This document shows positions 12,358 through 33,118 of a stretch of DNA of 64,000 bases, one piece after another. The stretch lies in NCBI RefSeq assembly GCF_009914755.1, contig NC_060925.1; one strand, given 5' to 3'. The notes under the pieces were generated by a model. The model did no database searches and was not told where the DNA came from. It saw only the letters and a list, made by a program, of their open reading frames with translations. The translations under genes were made by a program, and so were the position numbers. Source of the stretch: the human T2T-CHM13v2.0 reference genome, Homo sapiens. Position 1 is the stretch's first letter. Each line of letters opens with the position of its first letter.

Positions 12358-13551
12358 TAATTTTTTTGTATTTTTTTAGTAGATACAGGGTTTCACCGTG
12401 TTAGCCAGGATGGTCTCGATCTCCTGACCTCGTGATCTGCCCTTCTTGGTCTTCCAAAGTGCTGGGATTACAGGCGTGAGCCACCGTGCCCGGGTGATAA
12501 GTTCTTAAAAGAAACAGGTTATAGTATTGAAAAGCAAAATTTCTTGTAATTTTTTTTTTTTGAGACAGAGTCTCACTCTGTCCCCCTACCCCGAGAATCA
12601 ATTACAACCAAAATAAAAGAGCCTTTAATAGGTATTGTTAAGTACCCCCAACTACTATTAACCTTTAGGAAATCACTAGCTGGGTACACCTGTCCAATAT
12701 TAAACCTGTTTCTTATGAGTCCCTGTAGGAGTAAAAGGAGGACATCATGACCTACACTTGTGAACTTGTAGCAGGATGAGCCGCAGACAAAACCTCTCAG
12801 ACACCGAGTTGTAGAAGGAAGGGCTTTATTCAGCTGGGAGCATCGGCAAGCTACTGCCTTAAAATCCGAACTCCCCAAGAGAGCAATTCCTGTCCCTTTT
12901 AAGGGCTCACAACTCTAAGGATTTCACATGAAAGGGTCGTGATTGATTTGGAGCAAGCAAGGGGTACGTGACAGGGGCTGCATGCACCGGTGGTCAGAGA
13001 GAAACAGAACAGGGCAGGGAGTTTCACAATGTTCTTCTGCACAATGTCTGGAATCTATGAATAACATCGGTTTTTAAGTTATGAGTTGATTTTTAACTAC
13101 TGGGTTTAGGCCAGGCAGGCCCAGGCTTGGTTTCGGGCCTGGCGCTGGGCTGCCTGTCTTTGGTTTTACTTCCTTGTTTTTTTTTTTTTTTTTTCTTAAA
13201 ATAGGTACTGAGTATAAAACAATATAAAACAATATGAGAAGGTCTCTCTCTCCCCTCATTTCCCCCCTTTGAGACTCTCACTTTCTATTAGTGGGAGTTC
13301 TGACTTTTATTTTTGCTACTTATGTCTTTTTGTGCAATAGATTGATAGTGATTTATATAGTACACTTGTGCTAAAGCATTTTGGTGAACTAAGATAGTGA
13401 TGAAGCTTTTTATCATTTGAAGAAGTACAGGTAGCAAACAAGGAAGCAGTAAACAGGTTCTTATTACTATTATAAATTCTATTATAAGAGTTTTAAATCC
13501 TTCTAGTGCTGGGAACTAATTTTTAAACATGGCTTCAGGATCGAATTCATG

Positions 13552-13761
13552 CTACACTTGCATGGGCACATGTGTCAGTTTTGTCATATTTTTAACTATG
13601 TCTTTAACTACTTGCCTTTGATTATCTATGTGTAGACAGTAATTAGTAAGGTTAAATTTCTTATAGACCTCTCTTTCAGCTGCTAGCAAGTAGTTGAGAG
13701 CCAATCTATTTTGATAGATAGCATTTCTTATCTGAGTTTCTTGCTGGGCCAGAATAGTCAA
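13552..13761 (-). pseudogene. ERV env TM fragment with immunosuppressive domain
   Basis: QNRLALNYLLAAE motif (CKS-17-like); CX6CC motif degenerated; flanked by stops. Confidence 0.85.
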
Positions 13762-15329
13762 GGCTTGACTGGTTTTACTAGGGATGATTTCTAAAACAGC
13801 TTGCAGCTGTATGATTCAGTTGAGCATGTAAGTGGGGGTCCAGTATCCCCATGAGCCGTCTTGTGTCTAAGTGGCAGGCCTATAGTATTATATAATTTTT
13901 TTTTGAAGGTCATTTATCATCTTTCCAATTTCCTATGGCTATGCTTCATTTTCCGCGGGAAGCATAGACAGGGAAGCCCAGGAGTTTGCCTGTTTTTATG
14001 GTCAGTAGAAAGAAAGATGGTTTAATAGTGCCAATAACACAACTACCTGTCCACTGGTCAGGCAGCTTAGCTTAAGCTCTATGTCTACGTATTCAGTATA
14101 ACTTGGTGGGGGCAGTCCAGTCCCGGTGGAATTCCAGGTGGGCCCAGACAGTCTGCAACCTTGGAAATTTACTGAATGGATCTCTTTCTATATAATTGGA
14201 ACTTCACCATGTAACTGTTTTTTTGCGGTACCATTATACAGTTCTTGGCCCAAACAACTAAGACATCCTATAGAATGAGTGAATTCTTTCTTTTTTCTAG
14301 CTATGTAATATTGTCCAATAATTGAGACTTTTAGAACCTAGAGATGATCAGGGTGATTCTTGTGGGCCAGGAATTCATCAGGAACTGCGTCTGTAGGCAC
14401 TAATTCTTGGGCTTTTTATGGCCATTGAGCTCTTATTACAGTTTTTTCACAAACATAACATGAAGTGACATTTAGAGACTGGGCTACACGCTCGGCTAAT
14501 TGCAAAAACAAATTTCTGGTTTTTCCTGGAGTCTCTTGGTACTGGCAAATTTAGTTCATCATAGAAAGTCTGAAATACTGGTTCCAGAGAGAGTTTACAA
14601 AACTCCTCTTTTACTAAGATATTTGCTGTAGGACCTAGTCTTTTCCTATTGATGCCCAGAGATACGTGTTCTCCTTTTTTCTACCTTGGGTTTAAGGGAT
14701 TTGTAATTATTAATTTCAAGGGGTTCCAATGTCCACTCGTATAGGAGGGGCTGCATTCTCCTTTTTGGAGCTAAACAGGATCTTTTTCATCCTTTTTCTA
14801 AGTAGTCTAGATGACACAAGACCAGTAATTACACACATTTGCACATGAGCTTAATTCATGGCAGATATACTTATTTCCTGCCGTGTAAACTTTTTTTTTT
14901 TCAACTTAAAGAACTGCATCTTATTTTATGCCAATTACTATTGATAGTGGCACAAGCATTAAATTTTAGGGTTATATGCTTGGAGACCCCTCTTTCTTCT
15001 GTCCTAGCTATTACTTTACTTGTGTCGCCTAGAAAAGGACCAGTCATTAATTTTATTTTAAAAACTGATCATGGGAGGCTTAAAATGGGTCATAACACGC
15101 ATCAGGTTGGTTATTTCCTGGGCTACATACCTTGGATAGAATTGCATTATACAAACAACTTTTAGAGTCCTGGTACACTTATAATAACCATAAAATAATA
15201 AGACTTTAGCAATCTTTTGTCCCTCAGTGACTTGATGTATATACTGGGAACAGCCCTCAGTCTTAGGAAGGTCAGTTGAAGTCCTTACAATACAAGTCCA
15301 AATTTTAAGGAAAATGAGTCCCCTGCTAT

Positions 15330-15955
15330 GAGTTTCCTCATGCTTCAGCTGTGTGTGGACCAGTCAGCTTCCGGGTATGACTGGAGCAGGGCTTGTCGTC
15401 TTCTTCAGAGTCACTTTGCAGGGGTTGGCGAAGCTGCTCCCATCCGCGTACAGCTCCCAGTCTACTGCTGTTTAAGGATGGTCTCGGAGTTTGGGCCCAC
15501 TAGAATAAACTGAGTCCAATACTTCTACACAGTTATGTTTAACTGGGCTCTCTGATACAAGATGCCCAGCAAGATGGCGGGGTTTAGGGTGTTGCAAACT
15601 TCAATGGTTATGCAGGGATTTTCACAGAGCAAGCTTTGGTATCTAGTTAGTCCAGCATTCATTAGTTAATGGTGTCCTTTGGTATTTATTAAAATCACCA
15701 CAGCATGGGGGGACTTTAGGTTTTGCCTAAGAGTTAGCTTATTTGCTTCTTGTGCTAACAGGGCCGTTGCTGCCAGGGCCCTTGGACGTGGGGCCAGCCT
15801 TTGGAAACCCCGTCTAGTTGCTTTGAGAGATAGGCCACTGGCCTTGGCCAGGGCCCTACAGTCTGGGTTAAAACTCTAACTGCCATTTTTTCTCTTTCTG
15901 ACACATAGAGTGTAAAGAGTTTTGTCAGGTCAGATAGCCTCAGGGCTGGGCCCAA
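15330..15955 (-). pseudogene. ERV pol remnant (RT connection/tether and integrase end)
   Basis: [18 protein letters not shown]...[21 protein letters not shown] is a typical gamma-like pol segment. Confidence 0.8.
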
Positions 15956-16256
15956 AAGGAGTTTTTTTTTAACTCATGTAAAGCTCATTGTAATAGATGT
16001 AGTTTTTCTAATCTACATTTTTATTGACTGTCATCTATCAAAATATTGACTTAAATCCTGTAACTATTTGATTTCAAGCTTTAAATTGATCTGGTATTCC
16101 TTGCGGGGCTCCAGTTGCATCTAAATAGATGTGAGAGTTGAAAGACCTATAAGGAGCTTCTCTCGCTTTATGATGTCTTATTTTTTTTTTTTCCTCTGGT
16201 TGATGAAATGCCAGGGTAAAAGGGATAGCCAAATGGACTAAAGCACAAGTGCCACT

Positions 16257-16731
16257 CTAGTTATTCAGCAGAGTGCCCAGTAAAGGTCCACCACAATACC
16301 ACCATACATCCACTCGGGGATGAACAGAGGCTGACTGATTGATAAGCTCTTGAAAATTCTTAAGCTCACTGCATCCCTTCAGGTCTCCAAGGAATGCTAA
16401 ATCTCCTCCCTGCCATGAGAGACAAGAAGTGAACTTAGTGTTGGGAGACATAAGTTGGATGGCCCTCCGGGGCTGACCCGCAGGGACTTCAGGATATAGC
16501 AGAGAGAGCTTGGCATGACTTATCACTCCAGGCTGTAGAATCCTGGAAAAGAGCTACCATGCAGCCCACGCCTGGTCGACTGGAGGACCACCTTAGTGGA
16601 AGGGGGACAATCAGGGCCTCTGGCCTGCCACGTGCACAAGCATAACAATTGCTTTTGTTTAACGTGCAGATGGAATATATGATCCATTTCAACCAGGCAT
16701 TTGCATCTTGGTATGCCGTCTTAATTGCCAA
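16257..16731 (-). pseudogene. Second env-like (SU) fragment, probably HERV-I type, lying 5' of pol
   Basis: Cys/Trp-rich frameshifted segments NAWLKWIIYSICTLNKSNCYACARGRPEA and DVWWYCGGPLL. Confidence 0.6.
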
Positions 16732-16981
16732 AGTTTGTTTTAAGTCTTTAACTTGTATGGTCCTCTAGTAAAATGAATGTTTCCTTTAGCACCTATTTTT
16801 ATTAGTTTTTAGACCAAAGAAAGCTAAACATTATTTTATATTTAATAATGTTTCTTGTATGATTTTTATACCAGATAAGTTAAATTTTACCTTTATATTA
16901 GTGTGTTGTTAATGTTAAACTTAATTTTAATAAAACCTTGTAGACATATTTATCCAATTTTTTATGTTTGACCAATTTTTT

Positions 16982-17733
16982 ATGCTTGAAGGCGGCATGC
17001 TCATTAAGAGTCATCACCACTCCCTAATCTCAAGTACCCAGGGACACAAACACTGCAGAAGGCCTCAGGGACCTCTGCCTAGGAAAGCCAGGTATTGTCC
17101 AAGGTTTCTCCCCATGTGATAGTCTGAAATATGGCCTCGTGGGAAGGGAAAGACCTGACCATCCCCCAGCCCGACACCCGTAAAGGTTCTGTGCTGAGGA
17201 GAATTAGTAAAAGAGGAAGGAATGCCTCTTTGCAGTTGAGACAAGAGGAAGGCATCTATCTCCTGCGCGTCCCTGGGCAATGGAATGTCTCAGTGTAAAA
17301 CCCAATTGTATATTCCATCTACTGAGATAGGGGAAAACCGCCTCAGGGGTGGAGGTGGGACATGCGGTGGGCAATACTGCTCTTTAAGGCATTGAGATGT
17401 TTATGTGTATGCATATCTAAAGCACAGCACTTAATTCTTTACCTTGTTCATGATGCAGAGAGCTTTGTTCACGTGTTTACCTGCTGACCTTCTCTCCACT
17501 ATTATCCTATGACCCTGCCACATCCCCCTCTCTGAGAGAGAAACACCCAATAATGATCAATAAATACTAAGGGAACTTAGAGTCCGGCGGGATCCTCCGT
17601 ATGCTGAACGCTGGTCCCCTGGGCCCCCTTATTTCTTTCTCTATACTTTGTCTCCATGTCTTTTTCTTTTCCAAGTCTCTCGTTCCACCTAACAAGAAAC
17701 ACCCAAAGGTGTGGAGGGGCAACCCACCCCTTC
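16982..17733 (+). mobile_element. 5'-truncated HERV-K LTR5 inside the Harlequin provirus, opposite orientation
   Basis: Colinear with 7732-8480; ends GGGGCAACCCACCCCTTCA; first ~220 nt missing; no TSD visible. Confidence 0.93.
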
Positions 17734-18081
17734 ATTTTTTGTTTACAACTTTTGGAGACAATTTTTCAACATGTCTCAACTTTCTGACTTATTACAAACT
17801 TTTTTTCTTTAAACAAACAGTTAATTTATTTCAGGACAAGAATTTACCATATAACACTCTTTTTACATAAATTTTGCCTGCCCCCCTTTTTTTTTCTTTT
17901 TTTGAAGATAACCATTCCTTATGTCTTTGGACTAGACTGTCCAAGGCCACAAGATTAGAAGTTACCATAATACATGTTACACTGTTAACTTTTAGCAAAC
18001 GTCACTTTTGTTGAAAACCTTGTAAGTTTGGGATTTCAATTATCCTTTGCTATTAATAAGACCTTGTTTAGTCTAAATTAA

Positions 18082-18454
<373 letters not shown>

Positions 18455-27277: not shown

Positions 27278-27679
27278 ACTTTTTTTTTTTTTTTTTTTTT
27301 TTTTGAGACGGAGTCTCGCTTTGTCGCCCAGGCTGGAGTGCAGTGGCGCGATCTGGGCTCACTGCAAGCTCCGCCTCCCGGGTTCACGCCATCCCTCAGC
27401 TTCCCGAGTAGCTGGGACTGCAGGCGCCAGCAACCTCGCCCGGCTAATTTTTTGTATTTTTGGTAGAGACGGGGTTTCACCGTGTTAGCCAGGAGGGTCT
27501 CGATCTCCTGACCTCGTGATCTGCTCGCCTCGGCCTCCCAAAGTGCTGGGATTACAGGCGTGAGCCACCACGCCCGGCCAGGTCCCGAAACTTAAGCTTC
27601 ATTTGTTTCACTGCAAATCTGCTTCTGCCTACAAGCCTGGTCTCATTTTCCTCTACCTAAGGATCTTCCTCCATGCAAT

Positions 27680-28380
27680 TTCGGCCTAGGAGGCCCTTCC
27701 CGCCCCTTTTCGCCTAGCTAACTCTTTCGGTACTCAACCACCAACTCCTAATCCTCCCTGGTCCCCCAAGTGGGCTAGGGGCTTCTTGGGAGTCCCTCGC
27801 ACTGCTCTAAGCATCCAGGCAGAGTCATTATTCCGGGTGCCAGGTTGCTCTTTTTCCAGCAGCCTTCAGGGGACTCCTGGCTGGGCGGAGTCTGTAGAGG
27901 CGCGCGGAGTCCTGGGAGAGCGTCAGATGTATTTCCTTTCCCTTTTTTCGCTCGTGTCCCGCCGGGTGGCGCTCACCACCTCCCCGGAACACGCGAGTCT
28001 CCTGTCGCGGTTCCGGTCGGAATTACCCCGTGGAGCACGCCGATATGGCTGCGCTGACACTGAGGGGTGTCCGGGAGCTGCTGAAGCGTGTGGACCTCGC
28101 GACGGTCCCGCGGAGACATCGATATAAGAAGAAATGGGTAAGGTCCGGCTGGGGGCGCAGGAGGGAAAAGTGAGGGTGGAAACTTCTCCAGTCTTTCCGT
28201 TTCCCGGCCCTCTAGAACGCCTAGCGTCTTTCCCAAGCACTCCACGGAACGTCCTTAGGCACCTCCCTCTCTCGTCTTTTCCGTCACCGCCTCTGTCCGC
28301 ACTCTATGTCCCGAGCGTTAGTGTCTTCCACTTGTTACGTCTGCAGTCTCCTGACTCCGCCCAAGTTGCGTCATCACCTT
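27680..28380 (+). promoter_or_regulatory. NSUN4: NSUN4 CpG-island promoter
   Basis: CpG-rich and TATA-less; GC boxes (ccgccc ~27700, gggcgg ~27883); ETS/GABP-type TTCCGG at ~27831 and ~28011. Confidence 0.8.
28045..28137 (+). CDS. NSUN4: NSUN4 exon 1 (mitochondrial targeting peptide, MAALTLRGVRELLKRVDLATVPRRHRYKKKW)
   Basis: ATG at 28045; 93 nt; donor GTAAGG. Confidence 0.95.
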
Positions 28381-28509
28381 CGCCTTCATTCTTTTAGTGA
28401 TGTCACTGTCTCTTGTTCCCCAGCTGTGTCCACCTACCTTTCTGTCCCCCACTCCCCCTTTTACTTCCCTCCCTCCCCTCCCCCTTTCCCTTGCCCATTC
28501 TTCCCCCAC

Positions 28510-31020
28510 ATGACTTCTCCTTTCCTCATTGATTTTCCAGCCCGGTCGCCCTCACCCCTCGGAAAATACCATAGCGACCTTGCCTGCACTCCTGGGTCTC
28601 CGCCGCCTTGCAGGAAAGGATTCAGCCCCTTCCTCAACCTCGAGCTGCCTCTGGCGACCGGGCAAGGTTACAGCGACCACCCTGTCCATACTGCCGGCCC
28701 AAACCCTGGCAAAAGGTGCAACGAATCCTCTCATCCTCTGGACTCTCCTTGCTTCTCCAGAGACCCTTTTTCTTGCCTCACTGGAAGCCCTGGAATTTCT
28801 TCTATGACCGGCACGCCCCCCTGCCCACCCCAGCCGATTCCCTCGCCACCTCCACCATCTCTTCCACCCCCACAACCTTCCTCGCACTCAGGGAGATGGT
28901 CTTTTGAGTCCTCTTCCCCACTCCTGGAAAGGACCTACTGCCGCTAGCCCTGCCACTCGGGTTCCCCACTCTCCAGCCCTTATTTTGAGCAGTTCAGCAT
29001 TCCGGGGTCACCCCCTCTCTGTCAGCGGACACCTTATTGCAGCTGGATGAGTCCCTCCAGAATGCGGCGTCCCTGTCTTCAAGGCACGTACTGTGACCAG
29101 CACACTAATCTCTGTTACTCTAGCGGATGGCCTTCAGCTTTTAGAACCAGCCCGGCAACCTCCTTTCCCCTTGCTCATCAGTCCCCGGGAACGAGCCCAG
29201 TGACCTCCCCTCAGCTCACTCATGTACCCTTGGAAACTGGACCCATGATTTCGCCTCCTCCTACACATAGGACCCCGGGAACTTGCCTCACGATTTCACC
29301 TCCTCTTGCTCGCCGGCCGGTGGAAACTAGTCCTATGGCCTCCCCAACCCTTTCTCACAGAGTTTTGGAAACTGGGCTGATGATCTCTCTGCCCTCTCAC
29401 TGGTTCTCAGGGAGAAGTTATAATGACCCCCTTCTCTCCCCAGCATCTTCCCCACCTACTGGCAGCTTTTACCATGGCAGCCTTAAGCCTCTAGACTCTT
29501 GTGAACCCAAACCACAGCTTGACCTGCCCCTTGAGAAAAATTGTTGTGGCTTCCCACTCTCTTCTCAGGCAGGCATGCCTGGCTCTCCCAGCTCACCTCA
29601 GGAGGGCTCTTATCATTACTCCCATCTTTCCTCAGAGGCCTACATACCTACCCCTGGGAGTCCTTGCTATGCCATCTGCCTGTGCCCCGGGAGTACTGAT
29701 TCTCCTTGCTCACCCCAGTCCCAGGCTCCCAGGAAGGCTTGCATTGAGTCCCTTCTCTCCTGGGAGGCAACTGGGAACTCTTACCTCATCCTAACCCCGG
29801 ACACCACAACTTCTGGTCCCCCCTGTTCCCAGGAACCATCTCGTCCCCATGGTCCTCATTCTGTCCTTTCCTTCCCTTCACCCCTGGGCAACCAGTTTAT
29901 ATCTCCACCCCAGTCACTTCCCCGCAGAAGCTATAATGAACCCCCTCTTCCCACTCCAGTTTCCCCCCAACCGAAGTCCCCTAAGTCCCCAGAGTTAAGA
30001 CAGTCACATACTCCCCACAAATGTCTCTCCCTAGTCAACACTCCCCAGCACACCCCTTCTGGCCAGCCCAAGCCCGCTAAGGCCCACACCTGTCCCCCAC
30101 CTCCCTCCTGCCTCTCTGGTCCTTCTTGTATGCAGCCATACATCACAACTCCTTCAAATTCCAGCCCCAAAGAACTTCCCCCAGGGACTACCTTACTGAC
30201 TGTGGTCCCTAGAGCTCTCAAAAGTGTTATCCCCACTTCTTTTCCCCTCTGCCTTCCTTGTGATCCTGTCTCGGCCAATAGTTATGCTCAGAGCAGCCGC
30301 CATGGACCCTCCATAGGGCCCCCCTGCAATACCCATATATGCTCTGTGGTTCCCTCCACCCCCCATCCCTGCCCACTGTCTGGCTCCCTCAATCATTCGA
30401 CAGGCCCCCCTCCCATTGTGCCCCTGTGTGACACCTATAGCACTCCCAGGGGCCCACCCCAACCTCGTTGTCAGCCTGTGATGCCTCCTTGTTCTACCCA
30501 CATCTATTCTTTTATCCCTTTGAGAACACCCTTTGATCCTCAAAGTTTACCCATTGTCCCCCGAGTCCGGGCCTACCCTGATACTGTCCCCTGTGGCCTC
30601 CATATCTACCCTGTGGCCTCTCAAGGCCCTTGCAAAGAGCCTCTGCAGATCCCCTACAGCTGCCCTTTGCCTTCATCCAAGGATTCCAGCTGTAGCACCA
30701 ATCCCAGCTGTAGTTCGACTATTATTAGCAAATGCCAGAGTAGTGACAGCGAGAGCAGGAGTTCCCACCAAAGCCAAAGCCGGAGCCAAAGCAAGAGTCC
30801 CCATGATGGCAGAAGTCAGAGCTGGAGCAAGAGGCATCATCTGAGCAGAAGTCCAAGTCAGAAAAGCAGTCCCTATCCTAGCAGAAGCTGGGGCCGGAGC
30901 AGTAATCCTCAACAAAACACAAGTCAGGGCCAGAGTGAGAGTCCCCAACTTAGCATAAATGAGCACCAGGGTGAGAGTCCCCAAATTAGCAGAGGTCAGG
31001 GCAAGAGCAAGAGTCTATGA
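28510..31020 (+). pseudogene. Intron-nested SHTAP-like (sperm head and tail associated protein) Pro/Ser/Cys-rich reading frame: 145 codons, TAG, then 690 codons, with a frameshifted tail to ~31221
   Basis: ORFs 28306..28947 and 29047..31020 share a frame, separated only by TAG 28945-28947; no transposon sequence; internal peptide repeats; mouse SHTAP is encoded from the Nsun4 locus (recalled). Confidence 0.75.
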
Positions 31021-31479
31021 TGGCAAAAGTCGGAACCGGAGCAAGAGTCCCCAACATGGCAAAGGTCAAGGCCAGAGCAAGAGTCCCCAACATAGCAGGA
31101 GCCAGAGCAAGAGTCCCAGCGAGGCAAAAGTCACAGAGCAAGAGTCCTCACCATAACAAGAAATGAGGGCCAGAGCAAAAGTTCTGACCAGACCAAAAAT
31201 CTAGGCCAGAGCAAGGCATAGATAGTAACAAGATTGCCAGCTATAGCAAGCATCCCAGCTGCAGCAACCAGGACCGACTTGTGCACTCCTCATCTGAAGT
31301 CTTCATTTCTCTTTTACTCTGCCTCCTTGTTCTTGTCCTCTTGTCCCCTGCTACCCCCATAGCAGTCATCCTAGAAGTCCCTGTTTTGGTTCACACCTCA
31401 AGATTCTGTGGGCCCTCCTTATCCAACCTTTCTGGGGTCTGGGAACTCTCCCAGCATGACCCTCAACCCTCTGATTCTA

Positions 31480-31630
31480 AGCATGGTGGTGCTAGTCACT
31501 GTGTGACGCTAGGTAAGTTACCCACATCTCTTCATCAAATTGAAATGTTGTTAATTTTTTTTTGTATCTTACTGAGCTATCAGTTGTAGTGCTCACATAA
31601 GCTAGTAGACATGAAAGTGCTTTGAAAATA
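31480..31630. mobile_element. MIR fragment
   Basis: ctagtcactgtgtgacgctaggtaagttacccacatctcttcatc...tgaaagtgctttg. Confidence 0.55.
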
Positions 31631-32018
31631 GAACTGTTCAGAAGAAAAGGGCCTTTTGCTTTTAAGTTCAAAGCTTCCCAGAGCCTCCATAGTTTCTCCT
31701 AATCTTCTGCAGGCTCTCCTCAAGAGTCCTCTCCTGAGCTCCCATATTCCTAAGTTCCTCTTTCTCCAAGGTCCCCCTTCTTGATGACCCCCGCACAGTA
31801 CCGTGAGAGTTACATCTTTATCTGACAACCCTGGGATGGGAAGGCCCACTCTCCACTACTTTTCCCTCTCACACTTCTCTGGCAGGCAGGCAGGATGCAA
31901 AAGCAGGAGTGGGCACTAGCTGGATCCAAGTTTGCCCCTAGGCTCTGAGGTGGGGGTCAGGTAGTAGGGGGTAGAGTCAAGACTGGGAAAACCAATAAGC
32001 CTGTCCTCTCTCTTTTAG

Positions 32019-32363
<345 letters not shown>

Positions 32364-33118
32364 TAGGATCTGGAGCCATGACTGGAGCGGTCCTGAGTGT
32401 CTGCTGGAAGTAGACATGTTGAGACCCAGCTTCTACCCTCTGTAATAAGGACCATAATATTGCTAATATTTATGGCATGTTTATACAGACTAGGCATTTT
32501 TTTGAGGTGCTGTACATATGTTATCTCTTTTTGTTCTGTCAGCAGCCTTATGAAGTAGGTAATATTATTGCTGTTTTACATTTGGAGAAACTGAGGTACA
32601 GAGAAGTTAAGATTCTTACTTGCTTTAGGTCCCTCAGATGGTAAGTGGTGTGACTAATATTTAGACCCAGAACCTGCACTTTGAACCCACTCTGCTCTGT
32701 GCCTCTGGTAGAAAACAGCCACCTTTTACATGAGCACTCACTGGGCCCTCTCAAGTTGAAATGTGTTATTCACAGCAGTCTTCTCATTTTGCCCTCACAG
32801 CCACCCATCAAAGTGAATAGGAAAAGTAACTTCATGGTAGCAAAGAGGTAGTGGGACTTTCCTAGGAAATAGGGCTGGTCTAGGGGCACAAACTTGGTAT
32901 TAGACTGGGAAAAAGAAAGGAGAAGTTCAGTTTCTTGATTCAATCCTCATGTATATGAAGTTGAATGAGAAAAGACTGCAGAATCAAATGCTGAATTATG
33001 CTTTAACAATTAAGGAGAGCTCAATGTTAGTTGTAGGGTATGGGAATTGATTTTTGAAAGACTGATTTATTTATTAAAAAATATTGGCCGGGTGTGGTGG
33101 CTCACGCCTTTAATCCTA

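What the first reader, a model, noticed from the sequence alone, without database searches (positions are those of the whole stretch)
28510..31221. Hidden gene-within-a-gene: SHTAP-like sperm protein frame in NSUN4 intron 1
Seen: a frame of ~836 codons from ATG 28510 (MTSPFLIDFPARSPSP...) to TGA 31020 with only one internal stop. It is Pro/Ser/Cys-rich, carries ordered peptide repeats, and lies in an Alu-free stretch of over 5 kb (~27580-33085) in an otherwise Alu-saturated window. That absence suggests long-term purifying selection. Established (recalled): mouse SHTAP, a CRISP2-interacting spermatid protein, is encoded from the Nsun4 locus, and SHTAP is an NSUN4 alias. Inference: this is the primate orthologue, a testis-specific unit nested in the same orientation in a housekeeping mitochondrial gene. 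It is either pseudogenised or expressed as a 657-aa form from ATG 29047.
Basis: partly seen in the sequence, partly recalled or inferred. Interest (0 to 1): 0.85.

Follow-up and report, generated by a model that had tools for sequence, protein, structure and literature searches.

The report
Human SHTAP sperm gene inside NSUN4
The long open frame in the first intron of NSUN4 is the human copy of SHTAP, a sperm protein gene already known from mouse and annotated in many mammals, but in human its full-length frame is broken at both ends and only a 657-codon core stays open.

Summary
From ATG 28510 to TGA 31018-31020 the frame has one internal stop, TAG 28945-28947, and an ATG-started ORF of 657 aa at 29047-31020. 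The other five frames hold 17-45 stops. The longest open run is 690 codons, against a maximum of 370 in 300 shuffles.

[quoted passage not shown] ATG 28510 is the conserved eutherian start.

Human departs from the ancestral gene in two ways. Codon 146 is TAG where macaque and Sapajus have Glu. The last ~50 residues are lost to two frameshifts, with the old tail still readable out of frame up to TGA 31164-31166.

The protein has no Pfam domain, no paralogue in this genome and no relatives outside this family. It is predicted to be disordered.

Whether human makes the 657-aa core or the locus is a unitary pseudogene stays open; I put it at about 50:42. The gene family is already known, so interest is low to moderate.

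The parts
28510..28947 (+). Remnant of the ancestral N-terminal coding part: the conserved eutherian start ATG 28510 (MTSPFLIDF...), 145 codons, then a premature stop
   Evidence: 25 of 56 relatives start at the equivalent Met and 4 more contain it internally. Macaque P0004 is 89% and Sapajus P0003 85% identical over these 145 aa.
28945..28947 (+). Premature stop TAG at codon 146. Macaque and Sapajus have Glu in the same context (RTYCRE-P)
29047..31020 (+). Surviving open core: an ATG-started ORF of 657 aa ending at TGA 31018-31020
   Evidence: It is 98% identical to the 657-aa bonobo model P0001, which has the same first and last residues.
30484..30540 (+). Most conserved block of the family, PPCSTHIYSFIPLRTPFDP. 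It holds 8 of the 10 invariant columns (residues 480-498 of the 657-aa ORF)
   Evidence: 47 sequences aligned; position
30752..31215 (+). Degenerate 36-nt (12-aa) Ser/Lys/Gln-rich tandem array. It covers the end of the ORF and the out-of-frame old tail
31016..31166 (+). Out-of-frame remains of the ancestral C-terminal tail. It reads in the +1 frame over about 31016-31117, then in the third frame up to ...SPHHNKK and the ancestral stop TGA 31164-31166, so two frameshifts separate it from the ORF
   Evidence: tblastn of lemur and loris tails, 67.6% identity over 34 aa, plus three-frame translation
28541..31512 (+). RefSeq alternative NSUN4 exon that carries the whole 657-aa ORF. It starts downstream of ATG 28510 and ends at a consensus donor (CTAG|GTAAGT), so it is a long first exon that is spliced on, not a terminal exon
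   Evidence: Hub gene table for the exon; for the donor, for the lack of AATAAA/ATTAAA in 31000-31700, and for the upstream ATGs at 28804 and 28896
27582..33073 (.). Stretch free of multi-copy (Alu-like) repeats around the NSUN4 promoter, exon 1, the SHTAP frame and exon 2

Best explanation
[quoted passage not shown] I hold the identity at about 0.97.

The ancestral product was about 800-900 aa. It is Pro/Ser-rich, has no known domain and is predicted to be disordered. It carries a few short, strongly conserved motifs: RSYN[DE]P twice, C.TH.YS..P twice, and the block PPCSTHIYSFIPLRTPFDP. The likely mode of action is a flexible adaptor whose short motifs bind partners in spermatids and sperm. 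CRISP2 is the partner reported in mouse; this step comes from cited literature and was not tested here.

Human cannot make the full-length protein. Codon 146 is TAG, and two frameshifts cut off the last ~50 residues. The C-terminal truncation appears to be shared with other catarrhine models.

My committed reading, at about 0.5, is that the surviving 657-codon core is still a coding unit. It would be translated from ATG 29047 on the transcript whose first exon is 28541-31512, by leaky scanning or reinitiation past two short upstream ORFs. The product would be an N- and C-truncated SHTAP that keeps all the conserved motifs.

Shown: homology, the breaks, the open core, predicted disorder, single copy. 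Inferred: translation in human, CRISP2 binding, testis expression.
For: Homology: 56 relatives at E <= 0.001. 26 are named SHTAP(-like) and 10 are named NSUN4 isoforms, which fits a position in that locus.

Conserved start and breaks.

The core stays open in other catarrhine models:
- bonobo P0001: 657 aa, same start and end as human, 13 of 657 residues different
- Rhinopithecus P0002: 652 aa, 63 of 652 different
- macaque P0004: aligned over human read-through residues 1-743, 74 of 762 aligned positions different
.

Neutral expectation, using recalled divergences and an assumed indel rate: about 3.8 stops and 13 frameshifts between human and an Old World monkey. The chance that the core stays open in both human and bonobo since their split would be about 0.05.

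All 10 invariant and 74 nearly invariant alignment columns lie inside the 657-aa core. An annotated transcript exon, 28541-31512, contains the whole ORF (hub table).

No Pfam match at E <= 1. AlphaFold2 with 47 sequences gave mean pLDDT 44.1, pTM 0.20 and no secondary structure elements.
Against: Amino-acid change looks close to neutral. Human and bonobo differ at 13 residues against 16.2 expected without constraint. Human and Rhinopithecus differ at 63 against about 87 expected.

Polarised on other primates, 8 changes fall on the human branch and 5 on the bonobo branch. The human ones include P563L, L578F and P597R, at sites where 35/39, 35/47 and 43/46 non-primate sequences agree. Human and bonobo also share Tyr to Cys in the first C.TH.YS motif, where 39 of 46 non-primates have Tyr.

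Changes do not avoid conserved sites: 6 of 14 in the human/bonobo group, against a background of 301 of 618. The same holds for monkeys (34 of 78), so this test has no power.

ATG 29047 has T at -3. On the only annotated exon that holds the ORF it is preceded by ATGs at 28804 (a 47-codon upstream ORF) and 28896. The stop lies 492 nt upstream of a splice donor, which would normally invite nonsense-mediated decay. The ancestral stop lay 346 nt upstream of the same donor, so this is not new to human.

The Pongo model P0005 starts only at residue 379 of the ancestral frame. That may mean further damage in great apes.

The hub table lists no separate human SHTAP gene.
Confidence: 0.5

Rival explanations
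1. The identity is the same (human SHTAP orthologue), but the locus is a unitary pseudogene in human and probably in great apes. On this reading the TAG at codon 146 killed the gene, and the 657 open codons are a young relic that has not yet collected further stops. Transcripts across it would be by-products of the alternative NSUN4 promoter and of intron 1 retention.
For: - A premature stop removes the conserved start and 145 residues.
- No hominoid model with an intact N-terminus was found: only 3 proteins matched the N-terminal 145 aa, namely macaque, Sapajus and one unnamed cluster.
- Human-bonobo protein divergence is near the neutral expectation, 13 against 16.2.
- Human-branch replacements fall at conserved sites, and Tyr to Cys is shared in a near-invariant motif.
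- Start context is weak, there are upstream ATGs, and the architecture is prone to nonsense-mediated decay.
- The Pongo model is shorter still.
- The C-rich sequence makes few stops: only 3% of substitutions would create one.
Against: The core is open with identical ends in human and bonobo. That has a probability of roughly 0.05-0.15 under neutrality if the TAG predates their split (the rates are recalled and assumed).

The core also stayed open in other catarrhines long after the C-terminal truncation.

Near-neutral protein change and no avoidance of conserved sites are also seen in monkeys that keep a longer frame. These features therefore do not mark a dead gene.
Confidence: 0.42
2. The open frame is a by-product of composition. 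A C-rich, purine-poor intronic stretch would have few stop codons on this strand, with no coding history.
For: GC skew is strongly negative (-0.27 to -0.55) over 28200-30800. Only 3% of substitutions in the frame would create a stop.
Against: The other two frames of the same strand hold 17 and 42 stops. 300 shuffles of the same composition never exceeded 370 open codons. The frame has 56 protein relatives across placental mammals, with a shared start and shared motifs.
Confidence: 0.01
3. The sequence is kept in human mainly for a non-coding role. It would serve as a long alternative 5' exon or leader, or as promoter-proximal regulatory DNA, controlling which NSUN4 isoform is made. Candidates are the 335-aa form that starts at MTYSVQFG and lacks the N-terminal 49 residues. 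The SHTAP frame itself would be irrelevant.
For: Alternative first exons 28396-28715, 28396-29083, 28541-28715 and 28541-31512 all join the NSUN4 body. In the three short variants modelled, the longest ORF is the 335-aa NSUN4 form (hub table). Donors were seen at 28715 (AG|GTGCAA), 29083 (AG|GCACGT, a GC donor) and 31512 (AG|GTAAGT).
Against: A non-coding role does not explain a 657-codon frame kept open in several primates. No data on expression or regulation were available here.
Confidence: 0.07

Closest known systems
Mouse SHTAP (Jamsai et al., Biol Cell 2009/2010, PMID 19686095). The paper is not held; I know it from passages in PMC12804707 and PMC10947329 and from recall of its abstract.
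   Same: It is a gene embedded in the Nsun4/NSUN4 locus and unrelated to the methyltransferase. Named murid relatives match the human ORF: Rattus rattus P0048 at 48% identity and E 3e-123, and Arvicanthis P0043 at 49%. They share the start MTSSPPFL and the core motifs.
   Different: Human has a TAG at codon 146 and a frameshifted tail, while rodent models run 800-846 aa to ...KKK. No record named Mus musculus was returned, so the mouse protein itself was not compared. CRISP2 binding and sperm localisation are mouse data only.
[quoted passage not shown]
   Same: Identity is 98%, 90%, 86% and 90%. Bonobo has the same 657-aa extent. Bonobo, Rhinopithecus and Pongo P0005 end at the same ...GQGKSKSL.
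   Different: Macaque and Sapajus keep the N-terminal 145 residues, with Glu where human has TAG. Sapajus also keeps the long tail ending ...THHNKK.
Gametogenetin 1 (GGN1), another CRISP2 partner from the same yeast two-hybrid work (passage in PMC10947329)
   Same: The resemblance is in role only: a testis protein reported to bind CRISP2 in the sperm tail. That GGN is proline-rich is recalled, not tested.
   Different: There is no sequence relation. No Pfam family, the gametogenetin family included, matched at E <= 1, and the profile search found only SHTAP sequences.
NSUN4 (NOL1/NOP2/Sun methyltransferase, PF01189), the host gene
   Same: Same locus and strand. Some predicted models fuse the two: deer P0055 joins SHTAP residues 1-404 in frame to NSUN4 from exon 2.
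   Different: The 657-aa and 213-aa frames have no Pfam match. In human the annotated donors at 28715 and 29083 are out of phase with NSUN4 exon 2 when counted from ATG 28510 or 29047 (my arithmetic on the coordinates).

Membership tests
[quoted passage not shown] | Significant sequence similarity over most of the length to proteins named SHTAP or SHTAP-like | tested here: met
   56 hits at E <= 0.001, of which 26 carry that name. [quoted passage not shown]
[quoted passage not shown] | Similarity to the experimentally studied mouse protein itself | not tested
   No hit named Mus musculus appeared (56 hits) or (45 hits). The nearest named murids are Rattus rattus and Arvicanthis niloticus.
[quoted passage not shown] | Nested within the NSUN4 locus on the same strand, unrelated in sequence to NSUN4 | tested here: met
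   The frame 28510-31020 (+) lies between NSUN4 exon 1 (28025-28137) and exon 2 (32019-32362) (hub table). It has no PF01189 match. For mouse this is stated in a passage of PMC12804707. 10 of 56 relatives are filed as NSUN4 isoforms.
[quoted passage not shown] | Conserved start (MTSSPPFL...) joined to the core in one open frame of about 800-900 codons | tested here: not met
   The start is present at ATG 28510 but is cut off from the core by TAG 28945-28947. The tail is lost to two frameshifts. The sequence is an orthologue by descent, but not an intact member.
[quoted passage not shown] | Conserved core motifs (PPCSTHIYSFIPLRTPFDP, RSYN[DE]P twice, C.TH.YS twice) | tested here: met
   One deviation: the first C.TH.YS motif reads THICS in human and bonobo, where 39 of 46 non-primates have Tyr.
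[quoted passage not shown] | Expression in spermatids and sperm, and binding to CRISP2 | not testable with these tools
   No expression data were on hand. Complex prediction takes no mammalian reference partner.
NSUN4 / NOL1-NOP2-Sun methyltransferase (PF01189) | Methyltransferase domain | tested here: not met
   0 Pfam families at E <= 1 for both frames.

The most novel reading that the evidence does not exclude
SHTAP may show a full gene life cycle at one spot. It would have arisen in the stem of placental mammals inside NSUN4 intron 1. A profile search of 1.84 billion representatives returned 15 proteins, all pieces of this family: 9 were among the mammalian hits and 6 were new, unnamed fragments; none of the hits that carry a name is from a marsupial or another vertebrate. 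It would then have lasted about 100 million years as a fast-evolving disordered sperm protein. In the human and great ape lineage it is now being dismantled, with the N-terminus lost to a nonsense codon and the tail to frameshifts. On this reading humans lack full-length SHTAP, a CRISP2 partner that other mammals keep.
Probability: 0.35. Interest if true: 0.45.

Novelty: already known. Interest (0 to 1): 0.25.

Why it matters
The nested gene itself has been in print since 2009 for mouse, and annotation pipelines name it in dozens of mammals. Finding it is therefore a correct rediscovery, not a discovery.

What may be worth a short note is the state of the human copy. The curated human annotation shown to me lists no SHTAP gene, although SHTAP is quoted in reviews as a player in human-relevant sperm biology and as a possible fertility marker (PMC12724208 and PMC8850557, passages only).

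If humans make only a truncated core or nothing at all, mouse results on the SHTAP-CRISP2 complex cannot simply be carried over to men.

None of the 38 papers holding 'SHTAP' or the 10 holding 'head and tail associated' dealt with the human locus, judging by their titles in the listings (20 of the 38 were listed) and by the passages I read in five papers. These searches cover open-access text only.

Tried and rejected
- Pfam scan of both frames found nothing at E <= 1.
- The search of the window's own genome for paralogues returned only the locus itself. A stricter first look was used, so weak matches may be missing.
- The profile search for distant relatives gave 15 hits, all SHTAP or fragments of it. 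The library's coverage of marsupial and other vertebrate proteomes is unknown to me, so absence there is weak evidence.
- The structure prediction was too poor (pLDDT 44) to justify a fold search, so none was run.
- The test of whether human and bonobo changes avoid conserved sites had no power. Monkeys show the same lack of avoidance. That test kept only columns with at least 30 non-primate residues and unanimous agreement of at least 3 other primates. This dropped 4 of 8 human, 2 of 5 bonobo and 1 of 8 shared changes counted.
- A self-blastp for peptide repeats found none at E <= 0.01.
- A polyadenylation signal after the ORF was not found: no AATAAA or ATTAAA in 31000-31700, and only weak variants up to 32018.
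- The original SHTAP paper is not held.
- A third homologue search, started from the rat protein to find a mouse-named record, found none.
- dN/dS proper could not be computed, because no primate DNA other than this window is reachable with these tools.

Full report
**1. The observation**

Translating 28510-31221 on the + strand shows a frame that starts MTSPFLIDFPARSPSP. It has one internal stop and then ends after ...GQGKSKSL. The internal stop is TAG at 28945-28947, codon 146. The terminal stop is TGA at 31018-31020. The ATG-started ORF 29047..31020 is 657 aa.

Over 28510-31020 this frame has 2 stops, counting the last one, and an open run of 690 codons. The other five frames have 17-45 stops and open runs of at most 117 codons. 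In 300 shuffles the longest open run averaged 168 and never exceeded 370. The frame is therefore not a product of the strongly C-rich composition seen.

The product is 18.7% Pro, 18.2% Ser and 4.9% Cys.

Of the 'ordered peptide repeats', only a degenerate 36-nt array at 30752-31215 is supported. A self-blastp found nothing else at E <= 0.01.

The repeat-free stretch is real, at 27582-33073 (5492 nt). An equally long one lies at 12494-18154. The stretch around the frame also holds the NSUN4 promoter and two exons, so it is weak evidence for selection on the frame.

**2. What it is**

The 657-aa ORF found 56 proteins at E <= 0.001 among 6748 candidates:
- 10 are named as NSUN4 or NOL1/NOP2/Sun family 4 isoforms.
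- 5 have other names. One is a hyena model called FAAH1 hydrolase; FAAH is the next gene downstream in human.
- 15 are unnamed.

The named hits span primates, rodents, bats, carnivores, ungulates, hedgehog, elephant, manatee and sloth.

Identities:
- bonobo: 98%
- Rhinopithecus and macaque: 90%
- Sapajus: 86%
- lemurs: about 60-65%
- most other placentals: about 47-62%

25 of the 56 models begin with the equivalent of human ATG 28510 (MTSSPPFL...), and 4 more contain it.

No Pfam family matches. The window's own genome holds no second copy, though a stricter first look was used. A profile of 47 sequences run over 1.84 billion representatives returned 15 proteins, all SHTAP or fragments of it.

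Passages in PMC12804707 and PMC10947329 state that mouse Shtap is embedded in the Nsun4 locus and that SHTAP binds CRISP2. The original paper (PMID 19686095) is not held. No record named Mus musculus appeared, so the link to the mouse protein rests on the names given by the sources and on murid relatives (rat at 48% identity, E 3e-123).

**3. How the human copy differs**

*The stop.* In an alignment of human (X at the stop) with 18 of the 56 relatives, macaque and Sapajus read RTYCRE-P where human reads RTYCR-stop-P.

*Model starts in other primates.*
- The bonobo model starts at the same Met as human ATG 29047.
- Rhinopithecus starts five residues later.
- Pongo starts only at residue 379 of the ancestral frame.

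A search with the N-terminal 145 aa among longer proteins returned only macaque, Sapajus and one unnamed cluster, with no ape. This fits a stop shared by apes but does not prove it.

*The C-terminus.* Human, bonobo, Rhinopithecus and Pongo all end ...GQGKSKSL. Sapajus, lemurs and non-primates run on for about 50 residues to ...SPRHNKK.

The old tail is still readable in human, but out of frame:
- From about 31016 to 31117 it reads in the +1 frame, with 67.6% identity to lemur and loris tails over 34 aa.
- It then reads in the third frame up to ...SPHHNKK and TGA 31164-31166.

Two frameshifts therefore separate it from the core. The first seems to be as old as the catarrhines.

**4. Transcript context**

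The hub table lists alternative NSUN4 exons 28396-28715, 28396-29083, 28541-28715 and 28541-31512.

- Only the last holds the whole ORF, and it starts after ATG 28510.
- Base 31512 is followed by GTAAGT, so it is a long first exon that is spliced on.
- There is no AATAAA or ATTAAA in 31000-31700.
- On it, ATG 29047 (T at -3) is preceded by ATG 28804, an in-frame 47-codon upstream ORF ending at the TAG, and by ATG 28896.
- The stop at 31020 lies 492 nt before the donor. The ancestral stop lay 346 nt before it.
- The three short first-exon variants give the 335-aa NSUN4 form that starts at MTYSVQFG.

**5. Constraint**

No primate DNA was reachable, so I compared protein differences with a neutral expectation computed from the human codons. 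The divergences (0.012, 0.065, 0.11) and the indel rate are recalled or assumed.

Observed differences:
- bonobo: 13 of 657, against 16.2 expected
- Rhinopithecus: 63 of 652, against about 87 expected
- Pongo: 25 of 458
- macaque: 74 of 762
- Sapajus: 111 of 830

The protein therefore changes at roughly 0.6-0.8 of the neutral rate in primates. Yet the frame stays open where neutrality predicts about 4 stops and 13 frameshifts between human and an Old World monkey. The chance of an open core in both human and bonobo would be about 0.05.

Results that point the other way:
- 8 of the 13 human-bonobo differences fall on the human branch, several at well conserved sites.
- Human and bonobo share Tyr to Cys in a near-invariant motif.
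- Changes in the human/bonobo group hit conserved sites as often as the background: 6 of 14 against 301 of 618.
- The same is true in monkeys (34 of 78), so this test does not discriminate.

**6. How it likely works**

AlphaFold2 with the 47-sequence alignment gave mean pLDDT 44.1 and pTM 0.20, with no helix or strand. The only block above 70 lies around the second RSYNEP motif.

Together with the composition and the islands of conservation (10 invariant and 74 nearly invariant columns), this points to a disordered adaptor that acts through short linear motifs. This does not fit a passage in a review that calls SHTAP a coiled-coil protein (PMC12724208). Binding to CRISP2 and a role in sperm are taken from the literature on mouse.

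**7. Verdict**

The new detail is the exact state of the human copy: a nonsense codon at 146, a tail lost to two frameshifts, and an open 657-codon core that keeps all conserved motifs.

I put about 0.5 on the core still being translated and 0.42 on a unitary pseudogene. The remainder goes to a mainly non-coding role for the long exon. Interest is 0.25.

Noticed in passing
window 12494-18154: A second stretch of 5661 nt is free of multi-copy repeats, as long as the one around the SHTAP frame. It overlaps the RefSeq enhancer features at 15976-18163 listed by the hub.
   Followed up: no
window 29076-29093: The annotated alternative exon end at 29083 is followed by GCACGT. That would make it a GC-AG intron rather than GT-AG.
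   Followed up: no
P0055 and P0054 (Odocoileus models), compared with window 28510-31017 and NSUN4 exons: Deer models join SHTAP residues 1-404 in frame to NSUN4 from the start of exon 2. P0055 carries PF01189 and is 82% identical to human NSUN4 residues 16-293. If real, some ruminants make a SHTAP-NSUN4 fusion that lacks the NSUN4 exon 1 residues. In human the annotated donors are out of phase for this.
   Followed up: partly
P0015: A hyena protein of this family is deposited under the name 'FAAH1 hydrolase, partial'. FAAH is the neighbouring gene, so this looks like a merged or mislabelled gene model.
   Followed up: no
PMC12724208, section on SHTAP: A 2025 review describes SHTAP as a coiled-coil protein and says that disruption in mice impairs motility. 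The human core is predicted without any helix. I could not check the cited sources.
   Followed up: partly
PMC11241133 passage: 'NSUN4' is reported as down-regulated in the sperm proteome of Cfap65 knockout mice and is read there as a mitochondrial protein. Because SHTAP is filed under the Nsun4 gene, such peptides could belong to SHTAP. This was not checked.
   Followed up: no
window 28400-28513: ATG 28400, 4 nt after the annotated start 28396, opens a 37-codon frame (MSLSLVPQLCPPTFLSP...). It matches the N-terminal extension of the Sapajus model P0003 but is out of frame with ATG 28510 in human.
   Followed up: partly
P0016 (sloth), alignment: The Pro/Thr/Ser region after PLETGP is expanded in the sloth into several tandem copies of about 32 aa. 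Repeat number in this part of the protein therefore varies between mammals.
   Followed up: no
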